From: Marsupella aquatica
Taxonomy: Eukaryota > Plantae > Marchantiophyta
Assembly: GCA_973895155.1 (NCBI GenBank)
Contig: OZ316892.1
Span: 29,704,932-29,768,931, forward strand
Direction: 5' to 3'
Length of the DNA: 64,000 bases
Shown: positions 1 to 38,252 of the stretch, piece by piece
Layout: each line of letters begins with the position of its first letter
How positions within the stretch are numbered: the stretch's first letter is position 1
Position numbers and translations under genes: made by a program
Notes under the pieces: generated by a model
Seen by the model: only the letters and a program-made list of their open reading frames with translations
Databases searched by the model: none
What the model was told of the DNA's origin: nothing

Positions 1-188
1 CTATCGAGAATCAGTTCGAGAAAACTCAAATAAGCGTTAATTATATCATCGGTGAGCAACTCGCGCGGTCTCAGACACATCATATATTTCCTCTTGATCG
101 AGTGTTGTAAGAACTTGGTCAATAGCTCTTCCATATCCTTAGAAGGATCAAGGCATTGATCTATTCGACTAGCCAAATTTTCAAAAAA
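1..188 (-). pseudogene. Ulp1/peptidase C48-like exon (N-terminal part of catalytic domain)
   Basis: Manual translation FFENLASRIDQCLDPSKDMEELLTKFLQHSIKRKYMMCLRPRELLTDDIINAYLSFLELILD resembles the Ulp1 'L.P..WLND.IIN.Y..LL' motif. The catalytic triad would lie beyond the window start. Confidence 0.7.
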
Positions 189-1179
189 CTGCAAAAAATA
201 GAGATTTCAGTACGCCTTCAAATAACGTACTGAGGTTGTAGCCTAAGGGTTCTACCTCAGAAAACAGAAACAATAACAAATCAATAATAAAATAATGACG
301 TCTATAATAGAAACTTTAAGCTTATAGCTTGCAAATGACCTTTGGATTGGGTGGATCCGGCCTTTTCGTAGCTGATCTCTTGGGTGCCTCAATCGCAACA
401 ACATCCTTCAGCCCTCCTCGAGACCGCAGTGATCGCTCCACCGGACCAGTTTGCGAAGGTTAGAGCGATGAGGCAGGAAGACCTTCAAATGGTTGTGGCA
501 TTTGATTCAAATATTCCACAATCTGGGAATCCAATTCCAAAATATCCGGTGCCACAATTTCTGCGCGAGTGACCTCTGTAATATATCGGGGTCGAGACCA
601 CGAACCCGATCGCGTCAAGTCAGCTGTTAGTCTCTTAACGACTTGAGCCGAGTCTGGTGCCAAAGACGTTCTCAGGTCTTGCACTCGATTCTCGAAAAAG
701 CGAACATTATTGATGATTGTCTCCATTTTGGATGCAGTGGCAGTCTTCTCCTCGGTAATCAAAAGACCCTTCCAATATTGCAAAGTAAGAACTGTCTGGA
801 CTCGGAGCTGCTCTGGTGAATATTTATTCCAATCATCCAACGAGACCGTACTTAAGGGTGGATGGTTAAATTCAAACTCCGTGCGAAGAAAATAGTCTAA
901 TATTTTCTTCTTAACTGCAATTGAGGGTGAAGAAGGCTTCTTCAAATTCAGCCTTATTTTCGGTAGACGTTGTGCCTCAGGAATAAGCAAAAGATCCTTG
1001 GCCCTCTCGGCCTCCTTCCTCGCTGCCTCCAGTCTTGCGGAATTGACCTTTTTTGCCTCCAACTTCTTCGCCTCCACCCTCTCCGGTCTTGCGGTCTCGT
1101 CCGCCATCCTCTCGGCCAGCAGCCTCTCAGCCGCCACACTCTCCGCCTTGGCCCTATTTGCCTCTGTCACTAAAAGGAC

Positions 1180-1740
1180 TCTCGCAGCCTCCGCTTTCTC
1201 AGCCTGGGCTTTCTCAGCCTGGGCGTTCTTAGCCTCCGCTTTCTCAGCCTGGGCTTTCTCAGCCTGGGCTTTCTCAGCCTCCGCTTTCTCGGCCTCCGCT
1301 TTCTCCGCCTGGGCTTTCTCCGCAACCGCTTTCTCAGCCTGGGCTTTCTCAGCCTCCGCTTTCTCAGCCTGGGCTTTCTCAACCTCCGCTTTCTCCGCCT
1401 CCGCTTTCTCAGCCTCTGCTTTCTCAGCCTCGGCTTTCTTCTTCTTCTTCGCGGCAGTTGCTTTTCTAGCTACTGCCTTTTTCTTCTTAGCCTCCTTCTT
1501 TTGAAGCTCCTCTTGTCGGGATGCCTCCTCCTGCCGGGCCGCCTCCTTCTTTTGAAGCTTCTCTTGCCGGGCCGCCTCCTGCCGGGCCGCCTCCTCTCTG
1601 GCCTCCTCCTGCCGGGCCGCCTCCTTCTTTTGAAGCTCCTCTTGCCGGGCCGCCTCCTGCCGGGCCTCCTCCAGTCGGGCCTCCTCCTGCCGGGCCACCT
1701 CCTCTCTGGCCTCCTCCTGCCGGGCCGCCTCCTCTCGGTC
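1180..1740 (-). repeat. Coding tandem repeats: 15-bp unit (AEKAE/AEKAQ) array and EEAARQ-type array forming a charged helical linker
   Basis: Repeated gctttctcagcctcc/gctttctcagcctgg and gcctcctgccgggcc units inside ORF 460..1914. Confidence 0.9.
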
Positions 1741-2429
1741 CACCTCATGTTGAGGCTCCTGTGTGGCCTCTTCATCAGAGTCCTCAGCGTCCTCAGAACC
1801 CTCCATCTCCTCGTCCTCTTCATCAGCGTCCTCAGCGTCCTTCATCTCCTCTCCGTCACTCTCTTCATCTCCTCTATTGTCGGAATCTCCGACGTCGTTC
1901 TGCGTATTGGTCATCCACTCTGGATCTTGATCATTGACATCCCCATCCGCGTCACCTTCCGCGTCACCTTCCCCCTCACCATCCGCATTACCATTGCTCC
2001 CTGCATCCTCAACATTGAAGCCGCAGTCGACTTGATCTGAATAAAATCAGATCATTTGATAAGAATAACTCACGCGCATATTCGCGTGAAAAGAAATGTT
2101 ATGAATATCCACGCGCATGTTCGCGTGACGCAATAAAAAGTAAGAGGTTTCAAAAGTAACCTACTTTGGATTGGCCCACTAGGGTACTCCGTTGGTCGAA
2201 TGTACAATCGATCGGAATCTTCAGAGAGTGCATACTCTTGCAATAATTGATTACAAATATTATCAGGGATATGTTGTTCGTGGAGGACATCCAAAACATC
2301 AGCCCTGAGAGTAGTTACGGATGGACGGTACTTCATTAATTTATCTATACATTTTTCTATACTAGCCCGTACTGGGTCAATCAATGACAGCGTTGTATCA
2401 ATTGTCACCGTGGTGTGTTGCAAGAAACA

Positions 2430-3080
2430 AGACAACTCCCTATGCGTTGCCACAGGGCAATAATATTTTACATTGGATCCAGCATCCTGTAAAAAAAGCC
2501 AAAATTAGTTCACAATATTAATTGAGAATACAATAATCTAAATAATCTTAAAATCGAAACCCCAAAATATAAATCTCAAAACTTACCATTAAGCACTGGA
2601 TCAAGTTCGTTCCCTCACCGAAGCATATAGCCCATTCCCCACATTGGACGAATTGACTAACAATACTTTCAAAGAATGGAAGTATCTTTTCTGGGGAAGG
2701 TGTCGTGAACTCACCGCTCTCTTCAAAATTGGCTATCTTCTCAATCTGATATTTGGAGACCAATTGGAACTCGAGGGCTTGTGGATCGCCCATTGTGTTG
2801 AAGGCCAAGTTGTGAAAAGCGTAGGTTACAATAAGCTTCTTCTCCTTCGGCCGCTTCTGAATATAATGGCTATCGACAGCAACGTAGTGTGTGTACTTCC
2901 CTAATTCCCGTTTGATTAAGTAAGACTCAACTGGAGAGGCTACAATAATAACCACATGGTGTGGTTTTGCCCCTATCTCGCTAGTAGCACGAAATAACCC
3001 CTCATAGAATGAGCAATTTGGCGGACGCAAATTCCCATTGATGAGGGATCAAAATAAATCAAGCTTGCAAGGTTCTTGTC
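2430..3080 (-). pseudogene. Beta-class N6A/N4C DNA methyltransferase-like domain
   Basis: LASLIYFDPS then a 1-nt frameshift; restoring one base gives LIYFDPS(Y/F)NGNL, compare motif IV 'LIY.DPPYN'. Downstream EKILPFFESIVSQFVQCGEWAICFGEGTNLIQCLM|DAGSNVKYY parallels 'xKP..LL..LI......GD.VLDPF.GSGT...AA...GR..IG'. Motif order IV...X-I is the beta permutation. Motif I is degenerate. Confidence 0.55.
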
Positions 3081-3989
3081 TTCACGTATGATACAGTCTG
3101 CAAACCCAGCATTTTGTATATCCTTCAGGGATCGCAATTTCAGCCTCTCACCGACCGGCCGCACTAGTTGGTTTCCTTGACTATCAACTGATTTTTGTAT
3201 TCCTTCCACCAACTTGTAGAATATCGGGTCGATCTCCTTCAATAAATTATCATTACTAATATTTACATTTAAGCACTTCTTTAGATAACCACTCAACGCA
3301 TCTCTCAACTGCTTCCGCACCATCTTGTCGAGCTTAAAGCGATCAATCATTCCTTTGACCCGCAATTTCCGCGCTGAATCTGTTAGACTTTTCAGCTCCA
3401 TCCGGGTGGATGTATCCCCGTTGAGTTTACTCAATAATAAAATCTCAAACTCAACTTTTGTCTTCTTCTTTATGCAGAATTGCTCCAAACTCATGCTGGT
3501 CGTTGACAACACTGGAGCCTCAGAGGACTTCCTCGTCTTCCCAAATTTCACTTTGATGCTTCAGTTTTTGAGTATAGACAATCTTCCGCTCAACATATAT
3601 TCCGCTGCCTTTCGAAGAACCGAGTCTGAGCACCCTTGACAAGAACGAAACGTCTTCTTCAGAAGATGATAAGCACATGGATTATCCGCAATTTTGACGG
3701 CGTCCCTCTGTAAAATTCCGTTGTAAATTACAAGCTCTCCTGTCCTTGATAGTTCGTAGACCTCCATCCACTTCTTGAATGTTTCGTCCTCCATTGTAAA
3801 GAGAAACGGAGCCAATTCTCCAAATTTCATCATTTCGTTCTTCTCCATTTGAGCCCATGGGCAAACAAAACTTGTAGCTCTCATAAATACCTGAAAAACA
3901 ATGGAAACATGACAATTCTAAGCTTGACGCGACCGTTCGCGTGAAAAAAGTTTAAACGATAATGTGATCGAAGAGGGTTATTTATATAC

Positions 3990-4547
3990 CTCCCAATTTG
4001 GATGACGATAATGTGATCCAGGCCGCCCAAATGAGTTCCAGATATTACGACACTGTCGTACAATGGTAAGAAACTATCCTTCTTCCATTGATGTTTGATG
4101 ACAGTGGTTCAGAGCTTTCGATAATCCCATCAAATGAACATTATTGTCGTTGTTGAGCGTTGCCCAAAACATTACAACTTCTACAGTACCGCAAGCGTCT
4201 CGTACAACTTGGCTGACTTTATCGTCCTCTTTCAGCAATTTGTACGCCATTATTGTGTGCTGGCCTCCGAGTATCCAGAAATGACTGGTCATAATGTCCT
4301 CCTCCTTTGGCGATGAATCGTAGGGCACCCCATTGTAGTCGGGATCTCTGTTGGCCTCCAACTGAACCCACTTCACAGGGACTAAAAAGCAGCATCGCTT
4401 CTCGAACTTTATAGCCGAATGAGAGAGGAGTGAATTCTTTAGCCTATCTGTGTAATCCTGATTCCACTCTCGGCACTTGATGTGGTCCGGTGCAAGATGA
4501 CAATGTGATGTTTCAACCAAAAATGACTTGCTGTTTAATATATTCAC
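3990..4547 (-). pseudogene. ParB/Srx-like N-terminal domain
   Basis: CREWNQDYTDRLKNSLLSH...FWILGGQHTIMAYKLL...VEVVMFW...LSKALN resembles the ParB N-terminal pattern (R..d...v..L..Si ... iidGxHR..A ... v.v ... N). The arginine patch is degenerate (GGQHT). Confidence 0.55.
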
Positions 4548-5301
4548 AGCACTATATTCTTGAGGAAAGAATCGAACAGAGCCCCGACATTCGCTGAGGT
4601 AATTACTTTCGGAAGATTCTCCGCCGAGTATACTTCAACCTTGCTCACTGGCGGGGCCTTTCCTAAGCAAAATCCCTGGTTGAAAGGAACTCTCTGGAAC
4701 TCAAGTACGTCAATAATGTATTGACAAATCAAATCTCCCGTTGATCCCTCTGGATCGGAAGGATATCCCACACTAGTAACCTTTTCCAAGGCGTGCCTTG
4801 CACCTAGAAGATCATCGATTCTGGGCTGATTGAAGGTTACATATTGCGTTCGATCCAAATAAATGCTTATTTTGTCTTCCTGCTGGTCGTCGCTGACTAG
4901 CAGAACCAATCCCTCTGTACACTCTTTAACTTTCATGTTCTTCTCAAAGAAACACCCAAGAATTTTTTATCTCTCCAAAACTGTAGCTTTATCATTTTTG
5001 CCACCACAAGACGGATAGTCCCATTGCGAACGACTATTCCAAAATTGGATATCTCAGTCGATTCAAAGAGATGGATACTCTTTGTCTCCGTTGTTCTCTC
5101 TCTGATTGACTTTCCTCGATATGCAAGTATGGATGTCTCCACGGGAGTCATTTTTGTCTTGGTTTTCTTACGAGAAGCAGCTTTAGACAAGTCTCTTTTC
5201 CGCTTTGAGGTTCCGGTAGGATCCATTCTGAAACAGACAAATATTGAAAGTTAAACGTTTATTATAAAATACTAACACGCGCATGGTTGCGTCGTGCCAA
5301 A

Positions 5302-5835
5302 TTACATTTTAGGAATATTTATCCTGACCCAATCTTCTCGCTCTGAATCTTCATCTAACCAAAACCAAAGGTTCCTAAACGTGTCAAGTTCAGATCCTTC
5401 AAATCCACCCACAATGTCCAGCGGCGGGAGAGTTCTGATGGATTCTGTAAATCTTAATGCTACACTCCGTGAAGTCAAATGCCTTCGAAGCGATTCATAT
5501 CCTGGTCTATCAGTGAAGTCGTAAGCAACCAAGGTGACCGTCGCCCAAGTACTACTATAAGTAACTATGTGGCACCACTTCTTACTGACTGTTTGAATGG
5601 CGATCAAGTCCATGACCCAATTTTTAATCGTAGTATCCGACAAATTCCCAAGACAGTGGAAAAACTCTTTGACTAATGGCCAAATATATTTCTCGACAAT
5701 ATCGTCCAGAAGACCGGGTATTAGGTCTTTAGCTTGACTCCATATCATGTTTCGGTTGATAACCTTTGCACGTGCAATGCGCTCCATCATCATTTGACGA
5801 TGAGATTTTTGATTCATGTCAAAGGACTGCAGCAT
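5302..5835 (-). CDS. F-box-like protein 1 (split F-box), TE cargo
   Basis: LIPGLLDDIVEKYIWPLV ... IQTVSKKWCHIV; intronless and open; likely start is ATG 5817 after a putative acceptor. Confidence 0.65.
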   Translation of the reverse strand: MLQSFDMNQKSHRQMMMERIARAKVINRNMIWSQAKDLIPGLLDDIVEKYIWPLVKEFFHCLGNLSDTTIKNWVMDLIAIQTVSKKWCHIVTYSSTWATVTLVAYDFTDRPGYESLRRHLTSRSVALRFTESIRTLPPLDIVGGFEGSELDTFRNLWFWLDEDSEREDWVRINIPKM

Positions 5836-5869
5836 AATATGGAAACGATTAAGAACAAGAACCTATCCA

Positions 5870-6439
5870 TTAAGAACTGGGACCACCAAGATTCTGAGAA
5901 AATCTACCAAACCTTTCAATTAGGACATCTCGTTCTTCCTCATCTAAATTGTTATATTTGTTCGTAAACAATGCAATTTTGTCAGAAGTAGTAGTCCCAA
6001 GAACATATATTTTTGGAAGCATAGAAATATCCTGTCGAATAACTCGACAGACTGAGTCAAACTCCAACTCGTCAATTTTGGGTATGTCGTAAAGAGCATC
6101 ATTTGCGACATTGATAATCCGGTTTGCTTGTTTGAGGATAGCCCATAATCTTGTATTTGTAACTAAAAAGTTCCACTTCTTGCTATAAGCTCCAAGCCGA
6201 ATAAGGTCTCGGACCCTATTGATAACCAAATTGTTATCGAGGTGTCGATATCCACGCAATCTTTCAATTAAAATAAAGTGTTCGTAGAGTATTGGCCAAA
6301 TGTTTGAAATGACCAAAATATCTGGTATTCCTCCAATGAGACTAGAGGAGGATTTATCCAGTGTATCTCATATTGTTTTTTGTTTCCTTTCATGAGATGA
6401 AAGTCCGAAATCTCGACCCTCATTCAAAAGTTGGCTCAT
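5870..6439 (-). pseudogene. F-box-like protein 2, TE cargo, one premature TGA
   Basis: ATG 6439 is in frame with ORF 5870..6316, with TGA at 6368-6370; LIGGIPDILVISNIWPIL ... LGAYSKKWNFLV. Confidence 0.6.
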
Positions 6440-6504
6440 CCTGCTTTTATCATATCACAAAACATTGTTAGAAGACATACGACGTGCTTGGTCACGTAAG
6501 TTAA

Positions 6505-7056
6505 CTAGAATTCCTTAAAAGCGTAGATGTCACCCTCAAGGTATCCAACTTCGTGGCATCTGACTGTAAATTTCCATTTTTCAAGAGGGTGAAGAGCATC
6601 GTAAGTCTTCGTGAAGAGTTCCCTAAGATCTCTGGACATTGACCCCATGAATTTAATTCTTGTGTATCTCTGGAAGAAATTTTGAACTGTCGATGAGAGA
6701 GACTCATTTCTGATCGGTTTAGTAGGATTTCGTGGGAAAGCCAAATCTAATAAACTCAACTTGATTACACCCAGAAGATAGGTATTCCCAACAAGGTGGC
6801 GCCATCTGCGACACACCGAAGATAGTCCTACAAACTCATCCAATTCCTTTATTGAGAAATTTCCTGCATTAGCCGAGGAATTAAAAGTCTCCTTGATCCG
6901 AGGCCATATCAATTCCGCGACAATGAAATCTGGAAGTCCAGGTAGTAGTGTTTCAACAAATACAGAATATCCCGCCAGTAGACCATCTTGGCTTCTATCC
7001 AAAACGTCAAATATTGGGCATAGATATCTGAAGCTCTCCAGACCAGGTTTGCCCAT
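6505..7056 (-). CDS. F-box-like protein 3 (split F-box), TE cargo
   Basis: LLPGLPDFIVAELIWPRI ... LSSVCRRWRHLV; intronless open 183-aa ORF. Confidence 0.7.
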   Translation of the reverse strand: MGKPGLESFRYLCPIFDVLDRSQDGLLAGYSVFVETLLPGLPDFIVAELIWPRIKETFNSSANAGNFSIKELDEFVGLSSVCRRWRHLVGNTYLLGVIKLSLLDLAFPRNPTKPIRNESLSSTVQNFFQRYTRIKFMGSMSRDLRELFTKTYDALHPLEKWKFTVRCHEVGYLEGDIYAFKEF

Positions 7057-7194
7057 GACTCTTTTCAGCCAAATGATATATCCCAGAGATTATTTTCACG
7101 CGACTGGTCGCGTCTACAAATCAGAATGTATAAACAATTCTTTGAGAGACTGATTTTTTTGGGTCACAACGTGACAAATCATAAATGTTGCTTC

Positions 7195-7835
7195 GTCCTC
7201 TAACAGAACTAGTCAATGAGAGAGCTACCTCAAACGCGACTGGTCGCGTCAACTGATCCTAAAAGGAACCTTACCTCCTCTAACAGAACCAATCAATGAG
7301 AGCTACCTCAGACGCGACTGGTCGCGTCAACTACTCCTAAATGAAACCTTACCTCCTCTAACAGAACCAGTCAATGAGAGATCTACCTCAGACGCGACTA
7401 GTCGCGTCAACTGGTCCTAAAAGGAACCTTACCTCCTCTAACAGAACCAGTCAATGAGAGAGCTACCTCAGACGCGATTGGTCACGTCAACTGAACCTAA
7501 ACAACTATATCCACTGAACCTTCCCTGTGGAGATTTGGATATGGTACGCGCTCAGTAAATCTATCATGTTTCCTTCTGACACGCGACCGGTCGCGTCAAC
7601 TGGTCCTAAAAGGAACCTTACCTCCTCTAACAGAACCAGTCAATGAGAGAGCTACCTGACGCGACTGGTCGCGTCAACTGAACCTAAACAACTATATCCA
7701 CTGAACCTTCCTTGTGGAGATTTGGATATGGTATGCGCTTAGTAAATCTATCCAGTTTCCTTCTCACACGCGACTGGTCGCGTCAACTAGTCCTAAAAGG
7801 AACCTCACAATATTTTCACGCGACTGGTCGCGGCA
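7195..7835. repeat. Tandem array of ~79-bp units (plus two longer variant units), each with the GACGCGACTGGTCGCGTC palindrome
   Basis: Unit cctcctctaacagaaccagtcaatgagagagctacctcagacgcgactggtcgcgtcaactggtcctaaaaggaacctta; palindromes at 7233, 7311, 7391, 7471, 7580, 7658, 7767, 7817. Confidence 0.92.
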
Positions 7836-8917
7836 ACAGCTCAAACAAATTTTGGACAATAGGATAATACAATGATACAACTGTGATTACTGACCCGTAC
7901 GGACAAGGAAATCCGAGTAAGCATGATTTCATTCATTTGTATTCATTCATGAACTTTACAATAATTCAGATGTTTGAGCTCTGTCATTGTGAAACTATTA
8001 TATATCATAAGTTTAGAGAATGATCCAGCTAAGATGATTCAATTTAGCAGTCTACTGGTTGTATTCGTCAATTAAAGGATTCAGTGTAATGAGATTCACA
8101 TAACATGAGAGTTTATATGATTAAATTCACAGCGTGCAAGTTTGTAATGACTTACTTAAGACGATTCAGGTTGTATTTTAATTAGTGAGTTTGTATGATT
8201 AACACATATTTGAGTTTCCAAACAAACCGCATTATGAAAACTCAGCTTAACAATCAAGAGAAATTTTAGCAAACCACAATCAACACCAGCAGAAAATGTA
8301 GAAATTGCACCTGAATTCTAAAAAATTGATGTAATCGTCTGAGAGATTGACGTCCAAGCACTTGAAGACCTTGCTGCGGCATTCCAGAAAGTAAATATAA
8401 GATTGAAGATATTAATATGCTAAGCAACAACAACACAGCTTCTATACTTCTATACATAGAGCTTCGCTGCCACCAATTGAATAACATGTGCTTAATGCTA
8501 AGGAACTCATTATGTCGAGTTAAAAAGACTCTTTCAGAAGTACAATCAAAGCTGTGGATAGGCAAACTGAGCATGAATAAAAGCGCACTAAACTTGAAGA
8601 TTCAAAGAGGTGAAACAAACCTGAATGCTGAATGGAAGGAGCTGAAACAAGCTGCCAAAAAGTAGTTCGAGCTGCTGAAACACGTTGATCGAGCTGATAT
8701 GAGCTTAAAATTGGCTGACACGAGCTAATACAAGCACTCCCAAAAAACTAGCTGCAATGAACTAGCAAACTAGAAGTGAATACGAGCTGTAAATGCGAGC
8801 TGTAACGCACCAACGAGCTCCTGGTCGAAATGATCAACAACTACTAAGAGTTGCAATGCGCCGACAAGCACCTGACCACAACGAACGAGCTGCAACGACA
8901 AAAATGAAATCCAAGGC

Positions 8918-9130
8918 AGGAGCGAGAGCGAGAGCGAGAACGACGAGAGCGAGAGCGACGAGAGCGAGAGCGATGAGAGTGAGAGCGAGAGTGATGAGAG
9001 CGAGAGCGACGAGAGCAGGCGTGCGAAAGTCTAGGGAGCGAGAAACAACAACAATGAACAGTGAACTCGAGACCGTGGGCGCCGACACTAAGGAAGGACT
9101 AATTAGGGTATTGTTTTAGCATAACCCTAA
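8918..9130 (-). promoter_or_regulatory. Putative promoter/5' leader for the minus-strand cargo unit: (GAGAGC)n tract (CT-rich on minus strand) and telo-box-like motifs
   Basis: (gagagc/gacgagagc)n at 8920-9016; ttagggt at ~9103 and aaccctaa at ~9123. CT-rich 5' UTRs and telo-boxes are typical of plant promoters; function is inferred. Confidence 0.35.
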
Positions 9131-10439
9131 TAACAGCCTAGCGACAGAAAGGTTCCAGATGATCTCCGTACACTCCACCATCGACTGAACAAACTATGCA
9201 ATCGTGAAAAAAAGATTACCGGATTCCTTTTGATTTGCCGTACTAAAGGAGATTTCTATTTGATCGCCAATTTGCAATTTAAACTGGTAATTATGCAACT
9301 GCAAAAGATTGTTAGTGGGGACCCCCGGATCCGGATCCGTATCTTCACTATATCTGCCAATTCAAATCCAAAATGTAAACGAACGACAACTTTCTCACGA
9401 TCGTTCCATCACGTAGTGGAGGCGAACTTCAAAATCATTACATTTTGGTAGTGGAGACCGTCGGATCCGGATCCGTACTCCACTCTCTATCTTGCCAATT
9501 CAAACCCATACTCTAAACAACATAGAACGATTCTCACGGTCGGGGAGAACCGATATTCAAAATCAATCCTGTACAATGATTCTCACGACTGGAGACTCAA
9601 CCAATTTTCAAAATCAAAATCGAGTCCAGATGAACACATCCTCCATGGAGTCAATAGACTAATCTCATTGCTCACGGATCATTCTTCATTTTCAGTTTCT
9701 CCTGACCAGGATACTAGCTGGGCTCTCAGCGGAGGCTGATCCAAGGCACATTTGAGGTAGAGCAAATTGGATCATTCGACTATTCCAGTCGGAGGCGGAG
9801 CTCATTCAAGCAACGCTGGCGCAGTTCTTGTTGTATCACCTTCAATCTTGGGGAGAGCACATCCGATCAAGCGGGAGAGTTGCAACAAAGCGAGACGATA
9901 AACATTTAGAACCTCCATAGTCTGCCTCGTTCATCAAAGCATTCTAGTGGACCAAAAAAGAGCGGCTATTTTGAAATCACAGTCTGGTCGAGGATTTTGA
10001 TCTTGATACGATCAACAAGTTGTCATTCTCTGGTGGTGGGATTCGATCACGATACTCAAGGAAATTGGAGTTCAAAGAAGGAGGCTTAGTTGGCTGGGAC
10101 GAGGAGGCTACGCTGGAAGGAAGAGGCTTGGCTGAGAGGAGGGTTTCCGCCAACATCGGAGGGTTGCCGCCAACATTGCTGAGACCACACGCAACTGAAT
10201 AACTTGTAAGTATCAATCAGCATTAATTCCGCAATAAATGAGGAGAGTAGTTGCCTTAAATCACGCATTCAATGCATGAATTGAGTCAATGAAGTTATGG
10301 TCCAATTTCTCACTCTGATTTTGATCAATCCATGTTTCAAGTCCAATACAGAAGCAATGTATCAGAAGTACTAGTAGAGGATCCGAATGAATTCTCTAGT
10401 CTAAAATTGTATGGCGTTCAAGTATAGTTATCCGTACGT

Positions 10440-11660
10440 TTTGCTATTGTTTATTGTAGTCGACGGCCTAGCAAAACAAAATATAATCGAGGTCCATTTT
10501 TCAGATCAAACTGATCTCAACTTGTTAGTAGGATGACCTGATTTTTTGGATACACATGTAGTTCATCACGCGCACAGTCGCGTGAACCAATTTATCTCGT
10601 GTCTTTTGATATTGTTTATTGTAGTCAACAGCCTAGCAAATTCTCCAGCAATCTATTTTAAAACCAACGTCTTTGTTTCATCACGCGCACGGTCGCGTTA
10701 ATATTTTAGAGGTCAGCGAAAGCTTTGCACTCTTACACGTAATCGCCCTTTATTTCTCAGATCCTCCTGATCTCAACTTGTTAGTAGGATGACCTGTTTT
10801 TTGGTTACACATGTAGTTTGTCACGCGCACAGTCGCGTGAACCAATTTATCTCGTATCTTTTGATATTGTTTATTGTAGTCGACAGCCTAGCGAATTGGC
10901 CAGCAATCTATTTTAAAACCAACGTCTTTGTTTCATCACGCGCACGGTCGCGTTAATGTTTTAGAGGTCAGCGAAAGCTTTGCACTTTTAGACGTAATCG
11001 CCCTTTATTTCTCAGATCTTCCTGATCTCAACTTGTTAGTAGGATGACCTGTTTTTTGGTTACACATGTAGTTTATCACGCGCACAGTCGCGTGAACCAA
11101 TTTATCTCGTGTCTTTTGATATTGTTTATTGTAGTTGACAGCCTATCGAATTGGCCAGCAATCTATTTTGAAACCGAGTTCTGTGTTTCATCACGCGACC
11201 GGTCGCATTAATGTTTTAGAGGTTAGCGAAAGCTCTGCACTCTTAGACGTAATCGCCCTTTATTTCTCAGATCTTCCTGATCTCAACTTGTTAGTAGGAT
11301 GACCTGTTTTTTTGGTTACACATGTAGTTCATCACGCGCACAGTCGCATGAACCAATTTATCTTGATATTGTTTATTGTAGTCGACTGCCTAGCGAATTG
11401 GCCAGAAATATATTTTAAAACCGAGGTCTTCGTTTCATCACGCGCCCGGTCGCGTTAATATTTTAGAGGTCAGCGAAAGCTCTGCACTCTTAGACGTAAT
11501 CGCCCTTTATTTCTCAGATCTGTCTGATCTCAACTTGTTAGTAGGATGATCTATTTTTGGTTACACATGTAGTTCATCACGCGCACAGTCGTGTGAACCA
11601 ATTTATCTCAAGTCTTTTTGATATTGTTTATTGTAGTCGACAGCCTAGCGAATTGTCAGT
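10440..11660. repeat. Tandem array of ~255-bp units (~4.8 copies), two CACGCG-N6-CGCGT palindromes per unit
   Basis: gatctcaacttgttagtaggatgac recurs at ~10513, 10769, 11024, 11279 and 11527. Confidence 0.93.
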
Positions 11661-11901
11661 GAGAGGAATCTCAATTTTTCCTTGATTGCAAAAATGGTTA
11701 CATCGATCCCGAAGGACTTCGAATGTGGAATCCATATCCACTAGCACTATCCAGGAATTTAACTGACCTGGTCTTTCGAACACTATTTTCCACGGGACGA
11801 AATTAAGCTACACACTATCTATAACAAGTTCTAACTTGAACTACTCTTGAATCTGTAGTTCTAATCTTTGACTACTCAAAATATTATTGACTTTGATCGA
11901 G

Positions 11902-12444
11902 TCAGTCATTCCAAGATGAAGGCATCCACTCATCGGTGTCTGGTGTGGATTCCCTTGAATCCAGAAATTCTTCCTTTGCCCAAGTCCTAACGTCCATAGA
12001 TTTTCTCGGCTTGCTCTTTCTGTAATACAAATCAGAATCTTCGTTCATCTCTAATTGCCTTTTCTTCGGTGCGTCCACTTTCTTGGCCTCCTTCTTGACT
12101 GTCTTAGCATCTGTTGCTGCTTCCCCCGAAATGGATTGGACGCATGCTCTGGCCTTCAACTTCTCCCCCCTCAAAACGGATTCCATGAGGGCTTTGCCCT
12201 TTAACTTCTCCCTTGATGCCATCTTTGTAGTCATCTCTGTCGGATTGGTCTCCATCTAATCTTCCATCGACAAATGTGGCGAACAATATCGTCTCTCACA
12301 AAACATTTGACCCAATTTAGTCACCGTAAACATTATATTACATCGCTGACACATTCTGTAAGGATTACCATGAATTCGATACGTCGAACCTTCTGAATCG
12401 TCCGTCGGACCATCCTCATTCTTTGAGCTCAGCGGAGTAGTCAT
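11902..12444 (-). pseudogene. Small cargo gene with Cys-rich (CxxC...Cx4C) putative Zn finger and basic/acidic tail; one in-frame TAG
   Basis: ORFs 12256..12444 and 11902..12255 abut in the same frame (TAG ATG); YRMCQRCNIMF...FCERRYC. Confidence 0.45.
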
Positions 12445-12921
12445 CGCCCTTCAAACAAGAGATGCGGACCGAGACTAAGAATTGGAAATGAGAGAGCTGA
12501 TGTGCGAATAGATTATCCAATAGCCAAAAAGTGGAATGCGTGGGGGAATGAGCAATAGGGATCATCTCAATGCTTTATACTGTTTAGTCTCCACTAGTCA
12601 TTGTCCATAGTGGTTTCTAGAAGAGAGTGCGCATTTGACTGGCGCGTATTAGAATTGGCGGGAAGTTCAGTTGTCCTCTAATTATGGCTTTAATTTCACG
12701 TTTGGCGACCGCCCCGGGAATACTGATTGCTAGTGAACTACTGAGATTTCTTATGAGGGTCAGTAGTTACTGACTGTCCGGTGTCCACTCATTGGTAAAC
12801 TGGTACTGTCCACTCATTTTTTCTGAGTGGAGTTGAAATGATTGTTCGTAATTGATTGTAGTCGTTCTCATTCACTTGAAATGACTGACAGACCATGCAT
12901 AATCTGTTACCGGTATGTGTG

Positions 12922-13230
12922 ATGCCTTTAGATCCGTAATTGTATCTTCCTATCTTGCGCGCAATCGTATCTTACTTATGAAGTACCAAGTATGAGCTAG
13001 AGTTTGGGCCTAGCCTTCTAGCTTCTACATCGTAGACCCTGTTATCCCTACACCCTCTGACTAAGGTCACGCGACATGCCTTTAGATCCGTAATTGTATC
13101 TTCCTGTCTCACGCGCAATCGTATCTTACTTATGAAGTACCAAGTACGAGCTAGAGTTTGGGCCTAGCCTTCTAGCTTCTACGTTGTAGACCCTGTTATC
13201 CCTACACCCTCTGACTAAGGTCACGCGACT
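12922..13230. repeat. 154-bp direct tandem duplication upstream of the transposase, flanked by a second dispersed duplicate (~12765-12920 vs ~13345-13470)
   Basis: atgcctttagatccgtaattgtatcttcc at 12922 and 13076. Confidence 0.88.
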
Positions 13231-13625
13231 AGTCGCATGCAGGGCAGTGCATTGACTATATTCTGCCTACTTATTGACGGTCGTGACAGGACAATGCAGT
13301 TCACGGACATTTTACTGGCGCTTATTAGCACTACTGTCCTCAGCAGTTACTGACTGTCCACTCATTTGTTCTGAGTGGATGTGAAATGATTGATCGTAAT
13401 CGATTGTGGTCATTCTCATTCATTTGAAATGACTGACGGACCATGCATAGTCTGTTGCCGGTATGTGGTACCTCTAGGGTCACGCGACCAGTCGCGTGCA
13501 ACGCAATGCATTGACTACATTCTGCTTATTGACCGACGTGACAGGACAGTGCAATGAAATTGACGGACGTGACAGGACTGTACGCTTACAGTGATATTCT
13601 CTGATGTGCAGGATCATAATTATTA

Positions 13626-16600
13626 TGGTGACATCGATAGTATGGATCAGGGAAGGTGGACAAGTTATTATAGGCATACGTGAGAAACAGGTTGGAAAAG
13701 GTCGCGTGATAAGTCTTGATCCTTCCAGGGTTTGTCACAATGTTCCTCTTGGGGCGGACAGAGTTCTTCTTCTATTGGAGGAAGTTTTTGACGAGACCAT
13801 TCTATGCGAAGATGGCAAACTTTTGAAGGACATGATTGGGGGTTACCTTGTATGGGAAAGGAATCAGCTTTTTTGAGCTCCCATAGAATCGGAGGATGTG
13901 TTTGGCACTGTTGGTGATGATCAAGATCCAGTCAATCAAAATTCTGATGGGAACAACCATAATGAGAGTCGGTCTGGTGTGGAAGTAGTTTTACCAAAGG
14001 CCTTGTGGATGGGCATGCCTGTAAAGGTGGTGGATGAGAACAAGTTGATTTTTGCAGTGGCAACTATACATGTTCTAGATCCTATAGTGAAGCTTGGGGA
14101 TATATGTCACCATTGGGAATACACATGTGGGAATTCTGATCAACAATTTTGTCAAGGGAGCTACCATAGATCATCTGAAGCATAGAGATTGCTTAAAAGC
14201 TTGGTCGATGGACCAACTCATTGCCAAGGATGGCAACTTGTTGTCTTTCCACAACATCAGGCAAGCTGTGGGAGGGAACACATCTCCAACAAGTGGCAAG
14301 CGGTCTTACGTCCATAAAAGTAGGAAAGAAAGAGTCCATCTTCCCAGACATCTAGAAGAGACACATCTTTGGCACGTCAAGATGTGTTGTTGATAAACAC
14401 TAAGGACTGTTGTAGTGAACATTGTTGCCAATATTTGGACCGCAACTTGGCTATGGCAATTAGGCAAAAGTGGTGGTCAAAATCTTTTGCGGAGCGCAAG
14501 GAGGAGGAAATCAAGGCTATTAAAAATACAATACACTTGGGTACTGGAGAAAGGATTCTAGCAGTGGAAGGCAAAGTATTGTGCTTGGAGGCATGGAGAA
14601 TCATTCATTCAAGAGGAAAGACTCAATTTTATGCCTTGAAGAAGACTGTGATGGCTGGAATGAACATAGGTACCCATGGTAATGCTGGAAAAGGCGTATG
14701 TCCGAGAAAGTATCTCAAGCATTCATGTCAATGAAAGAGATTATTGAGGAGGCAGCTGATCATCATCCAGCCAAGTTGCATGAGAACCATGGCAGATAAT
14801 ACAAGGATGGTTTTGAGGGAATTGCCAACAAATCTTACTTGGGAGAATATTAGAAATAGGGTTAATATTGTCAACCAGGAGGCTGGTCTTCCTCCAATTT
14901 CCCAACCCACCTTGAGTCATCTACATCAGATGTATTTCAGGGAGTTCTCACGTCACAAAAAGGGCAACAACTTTTCAAAGTGTACAACTTGTAGTGAGTT
15001 GCTTCAACAAAAAGCAAACCTTACAGGAGCTAAGGAAGAGTTAGAGGGCCTAAGGCGTGACGAGGAGGAACATCACCAAGACCACACACAGCAAAGAATG
15101 TGCTATCATACTTGGAGATATGAGTCCATCCATCGTCCAAAGGAAGTGTTATGCCTTATTCATGATAAGATGGATCATTCAAAGACAGCTCTCCCAAGAA
15201 TGCCCTTCAATCCTAAGCATGTGGATGGTGCCCAAAAGTTCCCAATTACTGTCACTGGTATCCTTACTCATGGTCATGGTCCCAAGGCCATAGCCCAATA
15301 TCATGTTGGAGTGTGGCCAGGTGATGTCAACATCACTATTGGGTCAATTGATTCAATACTAAGGATGTTGGAAAACCCAAATCCAATGATCAAATCACTT
15401 GTGGAGGGGCCAGACTCGACAAGTCTTTTTAAAGACCTCCTTTTTGGGAGAGCAGATATCTTGGAGGCAAGTGTCCTTAGAGCATTTGAGGATGACATTG
15501 CCTACATCTCAAGCCTAGGTACTTTACTCACAATCCTTTAATTTATTATTATTTAATAATATAAGCTCACACACACTGACACTCTACTTTGTGTAGTTGT
15601 TGCTCCTCCTAGCCAAGGTTTCATTAATAGGGTTTAAACCCTAAACCCTAAATTGGGGTTTAGGGTCTGACTAGGGTTTTATTTAAAAGCATTCTGAGAT
15701 TGTTACATTGTGATGCAACACCTGAGGCACCAAAGTTCAGGCCCCTTCCACGAGTATTGAAGCTACAACTGGATAATTGTGCCTCAGACAACAAGAACAG
15801 ATATATGATGGCTTATTTGTCATTGTTGACGGCAAGGGAAGTGTTTGAAGAGGTTCATCTTGGTTTTATGGTGGTTGGGCATACTCATGAGGACGTTGAC
15901 GGTATGTTCGGGCATTTTTCAGAGTCTATGATGCATAACCCCACATACTCATTGCCTGAGTTAATGTCCTTGTTCATGAGAGCAAGGACACCCAATGCAG
16001 TCCCACATTTTCTATAGGAGGTCCCAGATTTCAAAAACTACTTAGCTCCATTCATGTTGAAGGGCCCTGAGGCATTGGTGGGGCATTTAAAACCCAGACT
16101 GTTTAGGTTCTATGTTCGTCATGATAGTATGCCATGCTTCCAATACAAAATGAAGTCAACTGATTAGGGATGGTTACCCAAGGAAGGTATTGAAATGTGG
16201 TCATGGAAAGATGACAAAAGTCCTCACATCCCAATTGGGGTGCCCAAACGGCTACCAATGATGGAGTTGAAAATGCTTCCTGAAGTGCTGACAGGGTTGA
16301 AGAAGCATGTGTCATTCTTTGAGTTTATTCTAAAGCGAACAAAAGAGGAAGAACCAAAGCGACGTTGGACAACTATCATCAATTATTGGAATGACATTGT
16401 AGATACTCTACAGGGTGAGCAGGTGCAATATGAACCTGAAGGTGCACACAACTTGGAATACGGGTTTTGGCCTTTATCAATATGGAGAGAGCACGTTCCA
16501 CCAGAATATCGAAATGTGGCATGTGAGTTGGAGGCAACAGTGGATTATGTGGGACCAGCAAAAGATAAACCTCCTGAGAGTTTTAACCCTAGGGTTGATG

Positions 16601-17015
16601 TTGTGAAGGGCTGTTATGTGTTGGTACGGCCGGACGACTCAGACCTGATGTTTATCCCGTCCATATGGGGTTAGTTGTTACAGATGTGGTAGAAGGACCA
16701 GTGAATGAACAAAACCTTCTTACTCATGTATGTGGCGTTGAGTGGTTTAGACCATTTATGGCAAAGAAGCAATGTGGTCAATCAGATTGGCAGCCAAGAG
16801 AGCGGTGGGCAGATTCTTGGGATAAGAAATGAGAACGTGATCCAACTCCAATATACAAGGAAGCTGAGACAATAGATGTTTCCTCTGCCTTGTGGTGTTT
16901 CAAAGCACGCCAAGGACCAGTGACAGGGCTGGTAGGAATTCCAAAGAATGTTGTTGTCAAGGCAAGAGACTATCTCTTGACATGCATAGCAAGTGACAAA
17001 TCCTAGACAGTAATG
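13626..17015 (+). pseudogene. DUF7869-type / Sola-like DDD transposase with N-terminal Tnp1/En-Spm-like (DUF8039-like) domains
   Basis: Core motifs LIHDKMDHSK, LQLDNCASDNKNRYMMAYLSLL and FMVVGHTHEDVDGMF; FSKCTTC...H...H Zn motif; CCSEHCC and LCLEAW; N-terminal VGKGRVISLDP..CHNVPLG...GGYLVW. Several frameshifts and in-frame stops (13874 TGA, 16015 TAG). Intron region ~15519-15717. Confidence 0.8.
15628..15680. repeat. Short telomere-like TTTAGGG/CCCTAAA cluster in both orientations inside a transposase intron
   Basis: tagggtttaaaccctaaaccctaaattggggtttagggtctgactagggtttt. Confidence 0.75.
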
Positions 17016-17097
17016 AAGCATGTAGTTTAGCATACAGTTTAAAAGGCAACTCAGAATAGTAGTAGGCAGAGAACTCAAGTTTAGACAAGTCTTATCG

Positions 17098-17556
17098 TTG
17101 GTTAGTTTATTTAAGATATAATATTAGTTAGTGGGGCCTTAGTTTGGTGATATTAAGGCATGATATTATTGACATTCAAATGAATGTCCAGTAGACATTG
17201 TAATATACAACAATCCTATTAATAAATAATAATTATAGTTACACCTTCAAGTGAACTCAACTTTCAATGATTTTCTGATTTTATATGGTTCCATGCCTGA
17301 TTGAGTCAAAGCAATAGAAACTAACTAATTAAAGGGTGATACTATGATTGTAGGTCACGCACCCTGGTGCGTGTCAATCTTTTTTTGCATTCAACCCTAT
17401 AGTAATTAAATAGACAAGTTAGTTAGTTGGTTAGTTTATTTAAGATATAATATTAGTTAGACAGTGGGGCCTTAGTTTGGTGATATTAAGGCATGATATT
17501 ATTGACATTCAAATGAATGTCCAGTAGACATTGTAATATACAACAATCCTATTAAT
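17098..17556. repeat. ~127-bp direct repeat pair downstream of the transposase
   Basis: ttggttagtttatttaagatataatattagtta...caacaatcctattaat at ~17098-17224 and ~17427-17556. Confidence 0.88.
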
Positions 17557-18072
17557 TGTTGTAAAGGGTGGTCAATCTTTTTTGTATTCAACCCTATAGT
17601 AATTAAATAGACAATTGAAACAATGAATGACAGTTTAATTAAGGATTTGTGCATGGATCAAGAGGTACTTGATGTCATTTAGTGATGCATTGTTATAAAG
17701 ATCTTGCAACAAAACATTTGAAGTTTTTGACTATCCCACCAAATGTTAAAGAGGTTGATCATTCATTAACTTATAATATTTAGATAAAATTGGAATTAAT
17801 CTAATACTTCAGTATTCCTTAAATTGGGGTTATAGGTTTCATTTTCGTTGAAGTCTCTCAATGATGCGTTTGCATCACCTCAATGTTTCTTACATTGAGA
17901 CTAAAATTTGTAATTAAGAAACTGACCTCTGGTTAAGAGACTGACCTCTGGACCAGTTTCTTACTCTTGACTCCATGGCTTTCCTCGAGAAAATCAAAGG
18001 TCAAAAGAGGAGACAACCATGATTGTGCTGGGAGCCCACCTTTAGGGGTGTATGTAACTGCACATCAAAATG

Positions 18073-18273
18073 TGACATATAGGGTGGCTGACCTCCCTCC
18101 ATCCTCCATAGCATGATAAACCCCTTTATTTTCTTTAAATCAATGAGTGCCCACCATATATTAACACATTTTGACATATAGGGTGTCTGACCTCCCTCCA
18201 TCCTCCATAGCATGATAAACCCCTTTATTTTCTTTAAATCAATGAGTGCCCACCATATATTAACACATTTTGA
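18073..18273. repeat. ~99-bp tandem duplication within a ~240-bp insertion in the RLK remnant
   Basis: tgacatatagggt...ttaacacattt occurs twice; flanks align with 38020-38045. Confidence 0.85.
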
Positions 18274-18374
18274 TGTGTGATTGACTCACGTTCATAACTA
18301 TGGAGCATGCGAGTATGGACCAATCTTCAAAGTGAAAAATTTGTTCCAAGTAAGAAGAATAGAAAATCAATATA

Positions 18375-36849: not shown

Positions 36850-38252
36850 TTGTAATATGAAGCAAATCTACAGTAGAATCTGCAGACGATTGCTCGAGTA
36901 AATTGCGTACTGACTCGTAAACCTTCTCGTAGAGTTCTTGTTCAAATGTACTGTCTGTAAAATATCTTAGGAAATCTGCATACTAACGCCGATTTTCTCG
37001 ATAGCAGCACCAATAGCTTCCTTGGTAGCCTTCCTCAGGTTCTCAGCTGCGATCACAAATTGAACTGCTCCGCTCCCCTGAGTCCGGTGGCATTCAGTTG
37101 CCAGTGCTCAACATTGGCAGGAGCCACTTTTCAGGTGAGGTTTCCGGCTCGCTTTTACCATCTCTTTGTCTGGAGGATGATGTGGCAGCTTGGTCAATCT
37201 GACTTCGCACGTGTTGGAGGAGAACACTTTTGAAAGAAGCGTTTCTTCGCACTCTATCGGTGTACTGAGCTGGTGGAGTTGAAGCGTTCGTACAAGAAGT
37301 TTCAGTGCCCTTCCCCTCTGATGGCCTTTAAAAGCTTCAAAAATTCGAAACTTTAATTGGAGGCAATGAGCGACGCCATCAGTGCTGATTTACAAATACC
37401 GAATGATGGAGGAAGTTTCAGGCAGCTCAAATCTTTCAGTCTCGGCTACAACTCTTAAAAGGGAAAGACTCCTGATAATCTTGGTAACCTGTCTAATCTG
37501 AAGAGTCTGGATCTCCAGTACAACAATTTCGGGTACCTTTCCGAAAACTCTGGCCAAGTTGTCGCAGCTGAAGATTTCGAGCCTCCGATCGAACAATTTT
37601 AACGGGAGCATTCGGGGAGAGTTCTCCCAGCTGATCGAATAAGTTGGAGACCTTTCGTCTGAATCACAATAAGCTTAGGGGATCTCTCTCGCCGTGTCTC
37701 AGCAACTGCACCAACCTAATATATCTCTGGTACCGTACCTCCTGAGTTGGGGAATCTAACGAACCTTGTTGGGTTCTCTCTGTATGGCAATTATTTCAGT
37801 CAAAGTACTCCCCCAGAACTTATTACCTTTTCCTATTCCATAGGCGGTCGTTTCTTCTGTTGGAACGAATGGCGTCATTTCGTCGGAATTTCTCACGCGT
37901 TTGCATCGCCTCGATTTTTCATACATTGAGACTAAAATTTGTCAGTGACATCTAGACCAGTTACTTACTCTAGACTCAATGTCCTCCGAGACCCAAAGAC
38001 AAGAGCAGCATGTGATGGGAACCCATCTTTCGACGGACGTTCATAATTATGTAGAGCGCGAGCATGGACCAATCTTCAAAGTGAGAAATTTGTGCCAAGG
38101 AAGGAGAACGGAAATTAAATTAATACATGGAGTTGCTGGGTCAGTCCCCGGTCAGTTCGTAGACGAGAAAAGAAACCGTCAGGAATCATTCACTTGTATA
38201 AAGTCAGGTGGCAATAAGGAGCAGTATGTAAGACAGCCACATATACAACTCA

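What the first reader, a model, noticed from the sequence alone, without database searches (positions are those of the whole stretch)
1..5226. About ten apparent ORF fragments are one spliced polyprotein-like gene ending in a Ulp1 protease
Phase-compatible introns (3891-3989, 2487-2586, 2037-2164, ~189-339) and C>T-type stops link an NLS-like start, ParB-like domain, MTase-like domain, D/E-rich tract, EAARQ/AEKAE helical spacer and Ulp1 motif into roughly 1500+ aa. A DNA-targeting/modifying head tethered by a long spacer to a deSUMOylase suggests local removal of SUMO from silencing factors on the element (inference).
Basis: partly seen in the sequence, partly recalled or inferred. Interest (0 to 1): 0.75.

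Follow-up and report, generated by a model that had tools for sequence, protein, structure and literature searches.

The report
Plant transposon ParB-like helper gene
This is a broken copy of one long intron-containing gene whose protein has a predicted bacterial ParB-type domain; it likely belongs to a large plant jumping gene studded with one 18-letter palindrome that the protein would bind, possibly to keep the element unmethylated, much like helper genes recently described in algae.

Summary
The ORF fragments at 1-5226 (minus strand) are one decayed spliced gene of at least about 1,580 codons, open at the window's left edge. All four introns are phase-compatible; the three stops and two of three frameshifts are open in other sequencing runs; intact relatives run across the 5' breaks and share the first splice donor. 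The ParB/Srx fold is supported by structure (without ParB's arginine patch), and an unnoticed PH-like fold precedes it. The methyltransferase label scored no better than shuffles, and the Ulp1 label rests on a 20-residue look-alike with no database hit; the catalytic core would lie outside the window. Best reading: accessory gene of a giant DNA transposon that targets its own palindromes, a land-plant variant of the ParB accessory genes published for red and brown algal transposons.

The parts
3990..5226 (-). Coding exon 1 (ATG 5226; K/R-rich start, PH-like fold, ParB/Srx fold); frameshifts near 4995 and 4559, stop at 4074-4076
   Evidence: collinear with intact P0001 over residues 10-408; reads
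4687..5121 (-). Predicted PH-like fold (P0001 residues about 30-175; window position by projection)
   Evidence: VIA-align: 42 of 50 rows cover this part, mostly PH/PTB/FERM domains, best Z 5.7, rmsd 3.2, 90 aligned; a lead, Z under 8
4089..4538 (-). ParB/sulfiredoxin-fold domain with invariant WIxGGQHTI motif (P0001 residues 226-375; by projection)
   Evidence: Foldseek PDB ranks 1-10 all ParB/PadC/Noc; VIA Z 8.3 to PadC and KorB; BFVD; alignment
3891..3989 (-). Intron 1, holds one palindrome (3926)
   Evidence: 11 of the 13 relatives that reach this column stop aligning just after [WF][KEG]V, one (P0021) reads on into exon-2-like sequence
2587..3890 (-). Coding exon 2: helical region, then the putative degenerate methyltransferase-like stretch (about 3110 onward); stop at 3561-3563, frameshift near 3032
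   Evidence: P0021 39% identical over 154 residues across the stop, E 1e-29; MTase tests not significant
2487..2586 (-). Intron 2 (no palindrome)
2165..2486 (-). Coding exon 3
2037..2164 (-). Intron 3, holds two perfect palindromes (2071, 2110)
340..2036 (-). Coding exon 4: D/E tract, EAARQ repeats (1523-1733), AEKAE 15-nt repeats (1185-1439), unique region; stop at 460-462
189..339 (-). Intron 4 (weak donor, phase-compatible, no palindrome)
1..188 (-). Coding exon 5, open at the window edge; Ulp1-like motif LTDDIINAYL at about 18-74
   Evidence: no family hit; likeness recalled, not shown
5228..5305 (-). Probable 5' intron (GT..AG, 78 nt) just ahead of the ATG, holds one palindrome (5276)
   Evidence: sequence; inferred
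5302..7089 (-). Three tandem F-box-like ORFs (7089-6505, about 6440-5870, 5862-5302), probably separate cargo genes
   Evidence: Pfam F-box/F-box-like E 0.007-0.064, below cut-off; frames
7097..7834 (.). Tandem array (80- and 187-nt units) with 8 palindromes plus one decayed copy
10496..11655 (.). Tandem array (255-nt unit, 4.6 copies) with 9 palindromes
13222..13498 (.). Two palindromes ahead of the transposase-like gene; CpG level drops just after them
13628..16988 (+). Decayed, spliced DUF7869 transposase-like gene, divergent from the ParB-like gene; CpG-poor
   Evidence: Pfam DUF7869 E 8.1e-31 at 15724-16014 and E 5.7e-4 at 14735-15538; frames; transposase role recalled from the D..DNC..GHTHE pattern
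17356..17373 (.). Last palindrome, with two CpG-decay changes, behind the transposase-like gene

Best explanation
The region is a decayed copy of one spliced gene of at least 1,580 codons with a predicted ParB-type domain, and it is likely the accessory gene of a giant DNA transposon whose protein would bind the element's own 18-bp palindrome and likely shield the motif-bearing part from silencing. Shown: gene structure, breaks being lesions of this copy, ParB/Srx fold in a model of an intact relative, palindrome distribution, CpG contrast, a divergent DUF7869 gene. Inferred: that gene, palindromes and transposase-like gene are one element (no ends found); that a dimer of the protein binds CACGCG-N6-CGCGTG in introns and arrays, as ParB binds parS and VANC binds VANDAL motifs; that the long charged helical spacer holds a C-terminal effector, possibly a Ulp1-type SUMO protease (about even odds), near chromatin; that this keeps CG methylation off the motif-rich 13.5 kb. 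The middle domain is more likely an inactive scaffold than a working DNA methylase. This copy is dead; any effect on it would come in trans from other copies.
For: Gene. Fold: AlphaFold2 model of P0001 with 25-row alignment, mean pLDDT 80.9; Foldseek PDB ranks 1-10 all ParB/PadC/Noc, probability 0.94-1.00, best E 7.7e-3; VIA Z 8.3, rmsd 3.1, 98 aligned to PadC and Z 8.3, rmsd 2.7, 94 aligned to KorB; BFVD best E 9.5e-4 with many ParB rows. Palindrome: 24 copies in 1-18000, 0 in 18001-64000, expected 0.17 (max 2 in 30 Markov sequences), fixed spacer of 6; 4 copies lie in three introns of this gene; one weak exonic copy at 599. CpG observed/expected 0.86 (148 of 172) in non-repeat exons against 0.30 (44 of 148) in the transposase-like gene, P 3e-11, step at about 13,500 just behind the last strong motif. 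Many divergent contigs lie on the stretch in each run (979 in X1, 312 of them under 95% alike), as a repeat family would give. Precedent: Bostrychia PAG3 (ParB plus oxygenase, tandem inverted repeats adjacent; 10.1101/2025.02.11.637652, section 8 read), Ectocarpus Sola1-1_Ec32 (ParB plus N4C/N6A methylase opposite the transposase; PMC12477816, passages), VANC motifs in tandem repeats and introns (PMC5735166, passages), VANC with Ulp1 (PMC13317346, passages).
Against: No Foldseek PDB match reaches E 0.001 and Z 8.3 is near the tool's stated background of 7-8; the GERRxRA arginine patch is absent (GGQHT; PMC7333895); no helix-turn-helix was identified. Element ends, terminal repeats and target duplication were not found; the left end is outside the window. 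CpG 0.86 equals the level of neighbouring host U-box ORFs (0.86-0.97), so only the contrast is informative, and the CpG-poor block runs on to about 19,900 into host-like DNA (17839-18360: 5 of 20 expected, paralogous stretches 14 of 12.5 and 10 of 10.5), which also fits two insertions of different age. The gene copy itself shows decay biased to CG and CHG (27 of 41 listed transitions, background 36%, P 8e-5), so protection was at best partial. MTase and Ulp1 labels have no statistical support.
Confidence: 0.55

Rival explanations
1. The protein binds the palindromes as a transposition helper or transcriptional regulator (like CACTA TnpA), without any anti-silencing effect; the CpG step marks a join of a younger CpG-rich insertion with an older methylated transposase block.
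For: CpG-poor block extends past the last motif into host-like DNA; CpG of the gene equals host genes; no ends found.
Against: Palindromes with the same GGTCACGC flank lie on both sides of the transposase-like gene (13222, 13481, 17356); divergent layout matches Sola1-1_Ec32; motifs lie in internal introns and arrays rather than at an end.
Confidence: 0.25
2. One reading: an active DNA methylase head marks the element and a tethered Ulp1 removes SUMO from silencing factors.
For: By eye the best local hhalign match places TPSPEKILPFFESIVSQFVQCGEWAICFGEGT on the HPTQKP..VVLDPFxGSGTT motif of beta-class methylases; algal relatives and six earlier scan notes describe ParB plus methylase-like cargo; Ulp1 domains are common transposon cargo (PMC2528002, passages).
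Against: A 38-sequence beta-methylase profile scored the stretch -1.2 bits (354 of 2000 shuffles as high); hhalign local 14.2 against shuffle mean 13.5 (53 of 150 as high); where DPPY would fall the sequence reads DPS and the FxGxG motif lacks its Asp; no Ulp1 hit.
Confidence: 0.12
3. A relic of an endogenous giant virus or another non-transposon insertion; F-box, ParB-like and Ulp1-like genes are viral cargo.
For: Best BFVD structure match is a Cafeteria roenbergensis virus protein (E 9.5e-4); tandem F-box-like genes.
Against: No relative confirmed in viral contigs (0 of 16 pattern matches), prokaryote genomes (0 of 27) or plasmids; spliceosomal introns with a conserved donor; adjacent DUF7869 gene; no viral core gene seen in the window.
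Confidence: 0.05

Closest known systems
PAG3 of Bostrychia Plavaka elements (10.1101/2025.02.11.637652; section 8 and passages seen)
   Same: N-terminal ParB-like domain on a giant DNA transposon (their best HHpred hit 7BNR is my Foldseek rank 2), tandem arrays of inverted repeats next to the gene, proposed self-binding and self-modification, mostly degenerate copies.
   Different: PAG3 carries a 2OG-oxygenase; here a PH-like fold, an unclassified middle domain, a 300-residue charged spacer and a possible Ulp1 tail; motifs also in the gene's introns; host is plant-like, transposase is DUF7869. Sequence homology to PAG3 not tested.
ParB plus N4C/N6A methylase gene of Ectocarpus Sola1-1_Ec32 (PMC12477816; passages seen)
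   Same: ParB-like domain followed by a methylase-like position, opposite strand to the transposase, element of about 20 kb.
   Different: 1,104 aa with a recognised methylase; here at least 1,580 aa and the methylase is unrecognisable by profile.
VANC and KIU of Arabidopsis VANDAL elements (PMC5735166, PMC13317346, PMC10398659; passages seen)
   Same: Short motif amplified in tandem repeats and introns of the element, accessory protein with tandem peptide repeats, Ulp1 domain fused in KIU, proposed anti-silencing.
   Different: VANC has DUF1985/DUF287 (MAIN-like) domains and binds a 9-bp non-palindromic motif on Mutator elements; no such domain here.
Bacterial ParB/parS, PadC, KorB, Noc (PMC7333895; passages seen)
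   Same: ParB/Srx fold; a palindromic site repeated many times.
   Different: No GERRxRA patch, no identified HTH, no ParA, eukaryotic introns; CTP clamp behaviour untested.
DUF3723 (fungal; Starship cargo, recalled; papers seen only as a search listing)
   Same: Nearest named Atlas cluster to P0001 (0.93, 155 of 256 features).
   Different: No Pfam DUF3723 hit; recognition score below the tool's threshold, so a lead only.

Membership tests
ParB/Srx fold superfamily | ParB/sulfiredoxin N-terminal fold | tested here: met
   on a model of relative P0001 (62% identical to the window ORF); agreement of three searches, each individually modest.
ParB CTPases (ParB/Noc/KorB) | GERRxRA arginine patch | tested here: not met
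   Invariant WIxGGQHTIxAY in 8 of 8 rows of A3; motif definition PMC7333895.
ParB CTPases (ParB/Noc/KorB) | Helix-turn-helix that reads parS | not tested
   Would lie in exon 2, which was not folded.
ParB CTPases (ParB/Noc/KorB) | CTP binding, clamp closing and sliding | not testable with these tools
   Needs biochemistry.
Beta-class N6A/N4C methyltransferase (PF01555) | Profile or fold match | tested here: inconclusive
   No Pfam hit on pieces; own profile not above shuffles; single-sequence model pLDDT 44.6 is uninformative; no homologues to build a profile.
Beta-class N6A/N4C methyltransferase (PF01555) | Intact DPPY and DPFxGxG motifs | tested here: not met
   Candidate positions read YFDPS and AICFGEGT in this copy.
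Ulp1/SENP protease (Peptidase_C48) | Profile match to the N-terminal part of the domain | tested here: inconclusive
   62-residue piece: no C48 hit, 0 of 24 candidates at E 10, no PDB relative; piece is short.
Ulp1/SENP protease (Peptidase_C48) | His-Asp-Cys triad | not testable with these tools
   Left of the window; no genome held.
ParB accessory genes of giant DNA transposons (PAG3, Sola1-1_Ec32 type) | ParB-like domain at the N-terminal part of a multi-domain accessory protein | tested here: met
ParB accessory genes of giant DNA transposons (PAG3, Sola1-1_Ec32 type) | Tandem arrays of inverted repeats near the gene | tested here: met
ParB accessory genes of giant DNA transposons (PAG3, Sola1-1_Ec32 type) | Same element as a DDE transposase, with terminal repeats and target duplication | tested here: inconclusive
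   DUF7869 gene 8.4 kb away, flanked by the motif; ends not found, superfamily not assigned.
VANC/KIU anti-silencing proteins | DUF1985/DUF287 domains on a Mutator element | tested here: not met
   No such Pfam hit on any of the 8 pieces of the gene or the 27 rows of A1.
VANC/KIU anti-silencing proteins | Motif-dependent loss of DNA methylation | not testable with these tools
   Only the indirect CpG contrast.

The most novel reading that the evidence does not exclude
A land-plant giant transposon has built a VANC-like anti-silencing system from bacterial ParB/parS-type parts: the protein loads at 18-bp palindromes placed in introns and arrays, spreads over about 13 kb, and carries a SUMO protease on a long tether, leaving a CpG footprint that stops where the motifs stop. 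It would be an origin of sequence-specific anti-silencing independent of VANDAL, converging on the same Ulp1 effector.
Probability: 0.2. Interest if true: 0.8.

Novelty: new variant of a known kind. Interest (0 to 1): 0.5.

Why it matters
The algal papers could only propose that ParB accessory proteins bind and modify their own transposon, and one of them names VANDAL as the only proven case. This locus supplies a precise candidate site (CACGCG-N6-CGCGTG), a multi-copy family in a plant-like host with cytosine-methylation-type decay, and a CpG footprint that predicts where methylation should stop, so the proposal becomes directly testable by binding assays and a methylome. A programmable, spreading anti-silencing factor would also be a useful chromatin tool. 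The copy itself is dead, and similar cargo has already turned up in print and in other windows of this scan, which limits surprise.

Tried and rejected
No genome held, so no extension left of the window. No RNA holder listed among 6 runs; that says nothing on expression. Pfam on 17 pieces gave no ParB, methylase or C48 family; PHROGs (11 proteins) and NCBIfam (12 proteins) gave only weak unrelated rows; PDB sequence searches nothing relevant. Protein-database searches with 3564-3890 (0 of 59 candidates) and 3-188 (0 of 24) found nothing. Atlas on 2587-3030: no usable hit; its single-sequence fold was unusable; phage tblastn no match. Related loci: none in viral contigs or prokaryote genomes; one short degenerate piece in metagenomes (L001, 1 of 39). 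Methylase profile built from 38 of 39 chosen loci (of 75 fetched, near-duplicates and partial matches left out) did not beat shuffles. Considered joining the F-box-like ORF 5862-5306 to the gene through the 5305-5228 intron (phase fits); judged less likely because five of six relatives inspected start at an equivalent Met with a K/R-rich stretch and the sixth (P0006) has such a Met at the same place behind a different apparent phase; not excluded without transcripts. Tried to assign the transposase to Sola or CACTA: the defining paper was not held and passages of PMC5751038 and PMC9033089 gave no motif; left unassigned. No CACTA-type end near 16.9-19.5 kb. Passages of PMC4738411, 10.1101/2021.02.12.428880, 10.1101/2024.04.02.587720 and 10.64898/2026.08.24.746577 described no such protein. 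Ten paper searches showed no land-plant ParB plus Ulp1 transposon gene; subscription papers and the bioRxiv supplements (for example Bostrychia Supplemental Table 6) were not seen and may hold one. No complex prediction was run.


Full report
Observation. On the minus strand the fragments between 5226 and the window's left edge join into one frame through four GT..AG introns (3989-3891, 2586-2487, 2164-2037, 339-189), three stops and three frameshifts. The spliced length in the window is 4,748 nt, about 1,583 codons, and the last exon is still open at base 1. No genome is held, so the end of the gene could not be read.

The breaks are lesions of this copy. Contigs of five public runs of unrecorded kind, from three studies, were laid on the region (four runs, two, X1 in both). 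The stop at 462 reads as sense in X1 (528 of 528 summed depth) and X2 (3031 of 3133), with no cover listed for X4 and X5; the stop at 4076 in X1, X2, X3 and X4 (92-100%); the stop at 3563 in X1 (410 of 438) and X3 (675 of 996). One-base insertions close the frameshifts near 3032 (full depth in X1, X2, X4) and 4559 (53-100%). The frameshift near 4995 is closed in only 12-22% of depth in X2 and X4 and is not listed for X1 or X3, so part of the family may share it. In X1 the window has A or T where the run has G or C at 121 places, the reverse at 41. Of 54 listed differences that I used (38 of the 40 rows and 16 of the 24 rows; five duplicates and five minor or ambiguous rows dropped; 351 further rows were not shown), 41 are C>T and 27 of these are in CG or CHG context against 36% background (P 8e-5), as expected for decay under plant-type cytosine methylation (inference).

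Relatives. One protein of 713 candidates, P0001 (418 aa, 62% identical), is collinear with the window from 5190 to 3987 across both 5' frameshifts and the 4076 stop. A full HMMER scan found only 24 further relatives at E 0.001 among 1.84 billion representatives. Of the 13 relatives that reach the end of exon 1, 11 stop aligning right after [WF][KEG]V, as expected if a gene caller ran into an intron at the same donor; P0021 reads on into exon-2-like sequence and across the 3561 stop (39% over 154 residues); P0005 is out of frame there. Several relatives begin with Met and a K/R-rich stretch at the same place as ATG 5226, which favours that start. Introns 2-4 rest on phase and consensus alone; no RNA holder was listed.

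Domains. An AlphaFold2 model of P0001 from a 25-row alignment (mean pLDDT 80.9) matches ParB, PadC and Noc in all ten best Foldseek PDB rows (best E 7.7e-3, none under 0.001), many ParB proteins in BFVD (best E 9.5e-4), and PadC and KorB at Z 8.3 for residues 226-375 in VIA-align, with sulfiredoxin, SbnI, serine kinase and pNOB8 ParB-N next (that these share the fold is recalled). The family motif is WIxGGQHTIxAY, not GERRxRA (PMC7333895, passages), so it is ParB-like without shown CTPase function. Residues 30-175 resemble PH/PTB domains in 42 of 50 VIA rows (best Z 5.7; a lead). The Atlas puts P0001 nearest fungal DUF3723 clusters (0.93, weak by the tool's own measure). The methylase label failed every test: no library hit, an unusable single-sequence model, and a 38-sequence beta-class profile scoring the X-read stretch at -1.2 bits, with 354 of 2000 shuffles as high, or 14.2 against 13.5 in hhalign, 53 of 150 shuffles as high. 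The best local alignment does fall on the HPTQKP..DPFxGSGTT motif, so a dead methylase fold is possible; the catalytic motifs are not intact. The Ulp1 label rests on LTDDIINAYL, whose likeness to the start of C48 domains I recall; no search supported it.

Surroundings. Upstream lie three F-box-like ORFs (Pfam E 0.007-0.064, below cut-off). At 13.6-17.0 kb, on the opposite strand, lies a decayed spliced gene with DUF7869 (E 8e-31) and a D..DNC..GHTHE pattern that I recall from DDE transposases; its superfamily is not assigned. Beyond about 17.8-21 kb the window holds tandemly duplicated U-box, LRR and kinase-like genes, which point to a land plant (inference). The palindrome CACGCG-N6-CGCGTG with up to two mismatches occurs 24 times between 2,071 and 17,373 and never in 18,001-64,000; 0.17 are expected. 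Four copies lie in three introns of the gene (including the probable 5' intron), 17 in two tandem arrays, three flank the transposase-like gene; a weight matrix adds a decayed copy at 7471 and a weak exonic one at 599. CpG observed/expected is 0.76-1.39 in windows up to 13,500 and 0.15-0.48 from there to about 19,900; exons of the gene give 148 of 172, the transposase-like gene 44 of 148 (P 3e-11). Against over-reading: host U-box ORFs give 0.86-0.97, and the CpG-poor block continues into host-like DNA whose paralogues keep their CpGs, which fits methylation confined to the motif-free end but also fits two insertions of different age. No element end was found.

How it most likely works. Inferred: the protein is the accessory factor of a giant DNA transposon; it enters the nucleus through its K/R-rich start, dimerises through the ParB-like domain, binds the palindrome, and holds a C-terminal effector on a long acidic and helical spacer; the outcome is reduced CG methylation over the motif-rich part. 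Odds: transposon accessory gene 0.85, binds the palindrome 0.6, anti-silencing 0.4, Ulp1 tail 0.5, active methylase 0.12. These are judgements, not computed values.

Comparison with what is known. Giant Plavaka elements of the red alga Bostrychia carry PAG3, a ParB-like domain plus an oxygenase, beside tandem arrays of inverted repeats, with the same proposal of self-binding (10.1101/2025.02.11.637652; section 8 read whole; passages). Ectocarpus Sola1-1_Ec32 (21.5 kb) carries a 1,104-aa ParB plus N4C/N6A methylase gene opposite its transposase (PMC12477816; passages). Arabidopsis VANC binds motifs amplified in tandem repeats and introns (PMC5735166; passages; PMC10398659, passages), and KIU versions carry Ulp1 (PMC13317346; passages); Ulp1 is also cargo of CACTA and Mutator elements (PMC2528002; passages). 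Six earlier notes of this scan on other genomes describe ParB plus eroded methylase-like cargo, one with an 18-letter palindrome and one in a plant; they are unchecked and not independent support, but they lower novelty. So the finding works like PAG3 and VANC, is not a VANC, and is not shown to be a ParB CTPase, a methylase or a Ulp1.

Verdict. Gene model right, domain labels half right, context richer than reported. New variant of a known kind; interest 0.5; the bold reading (a ParB/parS-derived, spreading anti-silencing system with a SUMO protease in a land plant) has probability about 0.2 and would deserve 0.8.

Noticed in passing
window 5302-7089 (-): Three tandem F-box-like ORFs, each with a LIPG/LPD..IWP start of the F-box; other runs show in-frame 3-nt deletions at 5344 and 6404; possible shared leader spliced to several acceptors.
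   Followed up: partly
window 13628-16988 (+): Decayed DUF7869 gene with the domain split by an intron near 15540-15720; strongly CpG-depleted.
   Followed up: partly
window 17839-18360: Host-like DNA similar to 37897-38108 and 48988-49222 but with its CpGs lost (5 of 20 expected, against 10 of 10.5 and 14 of 12.5), suggesting methylation spread or capture at the element's right side.
   Followed up: partly
window 7164-7400: Summed contig depth jumps several-fold in X1, X2 and X4 over the 80-nt motif array, with junctions suggesting variable unit number or copies elsewhere.
   Followed up: no
window 8266-9119 and 11902-12255: Short ORFs inside the motif-bearing region (a coiled-coil-like piece, an SR/DE low-complexity tract, a K/E-rich 117-aa ORF) that may be further cargo genes.
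   Followed up: no
window 21060-58130: Three tandem copies of a host unit with kinase-like, U-box and LRR pieces (repeat spacing about 19 and 11 kb).
   Followed up: partly
window 33226-33810 (+): ORF resembling an FAD-dependent oxidoreductase exon by eye; no Pfam hit.
   Followed up: no
P0021: Relative that lacks intron 1 and also lacks the GGQH core of the ParB-like domain: a spliced, rearranged or exon-skipped form.
   Followed up: partly
L001:493-633: Only metagenome locus found; short, stop-ridden piece with the WIIGGQHT motif in AT-rich repeat-like DNA.
   Followed up: partly
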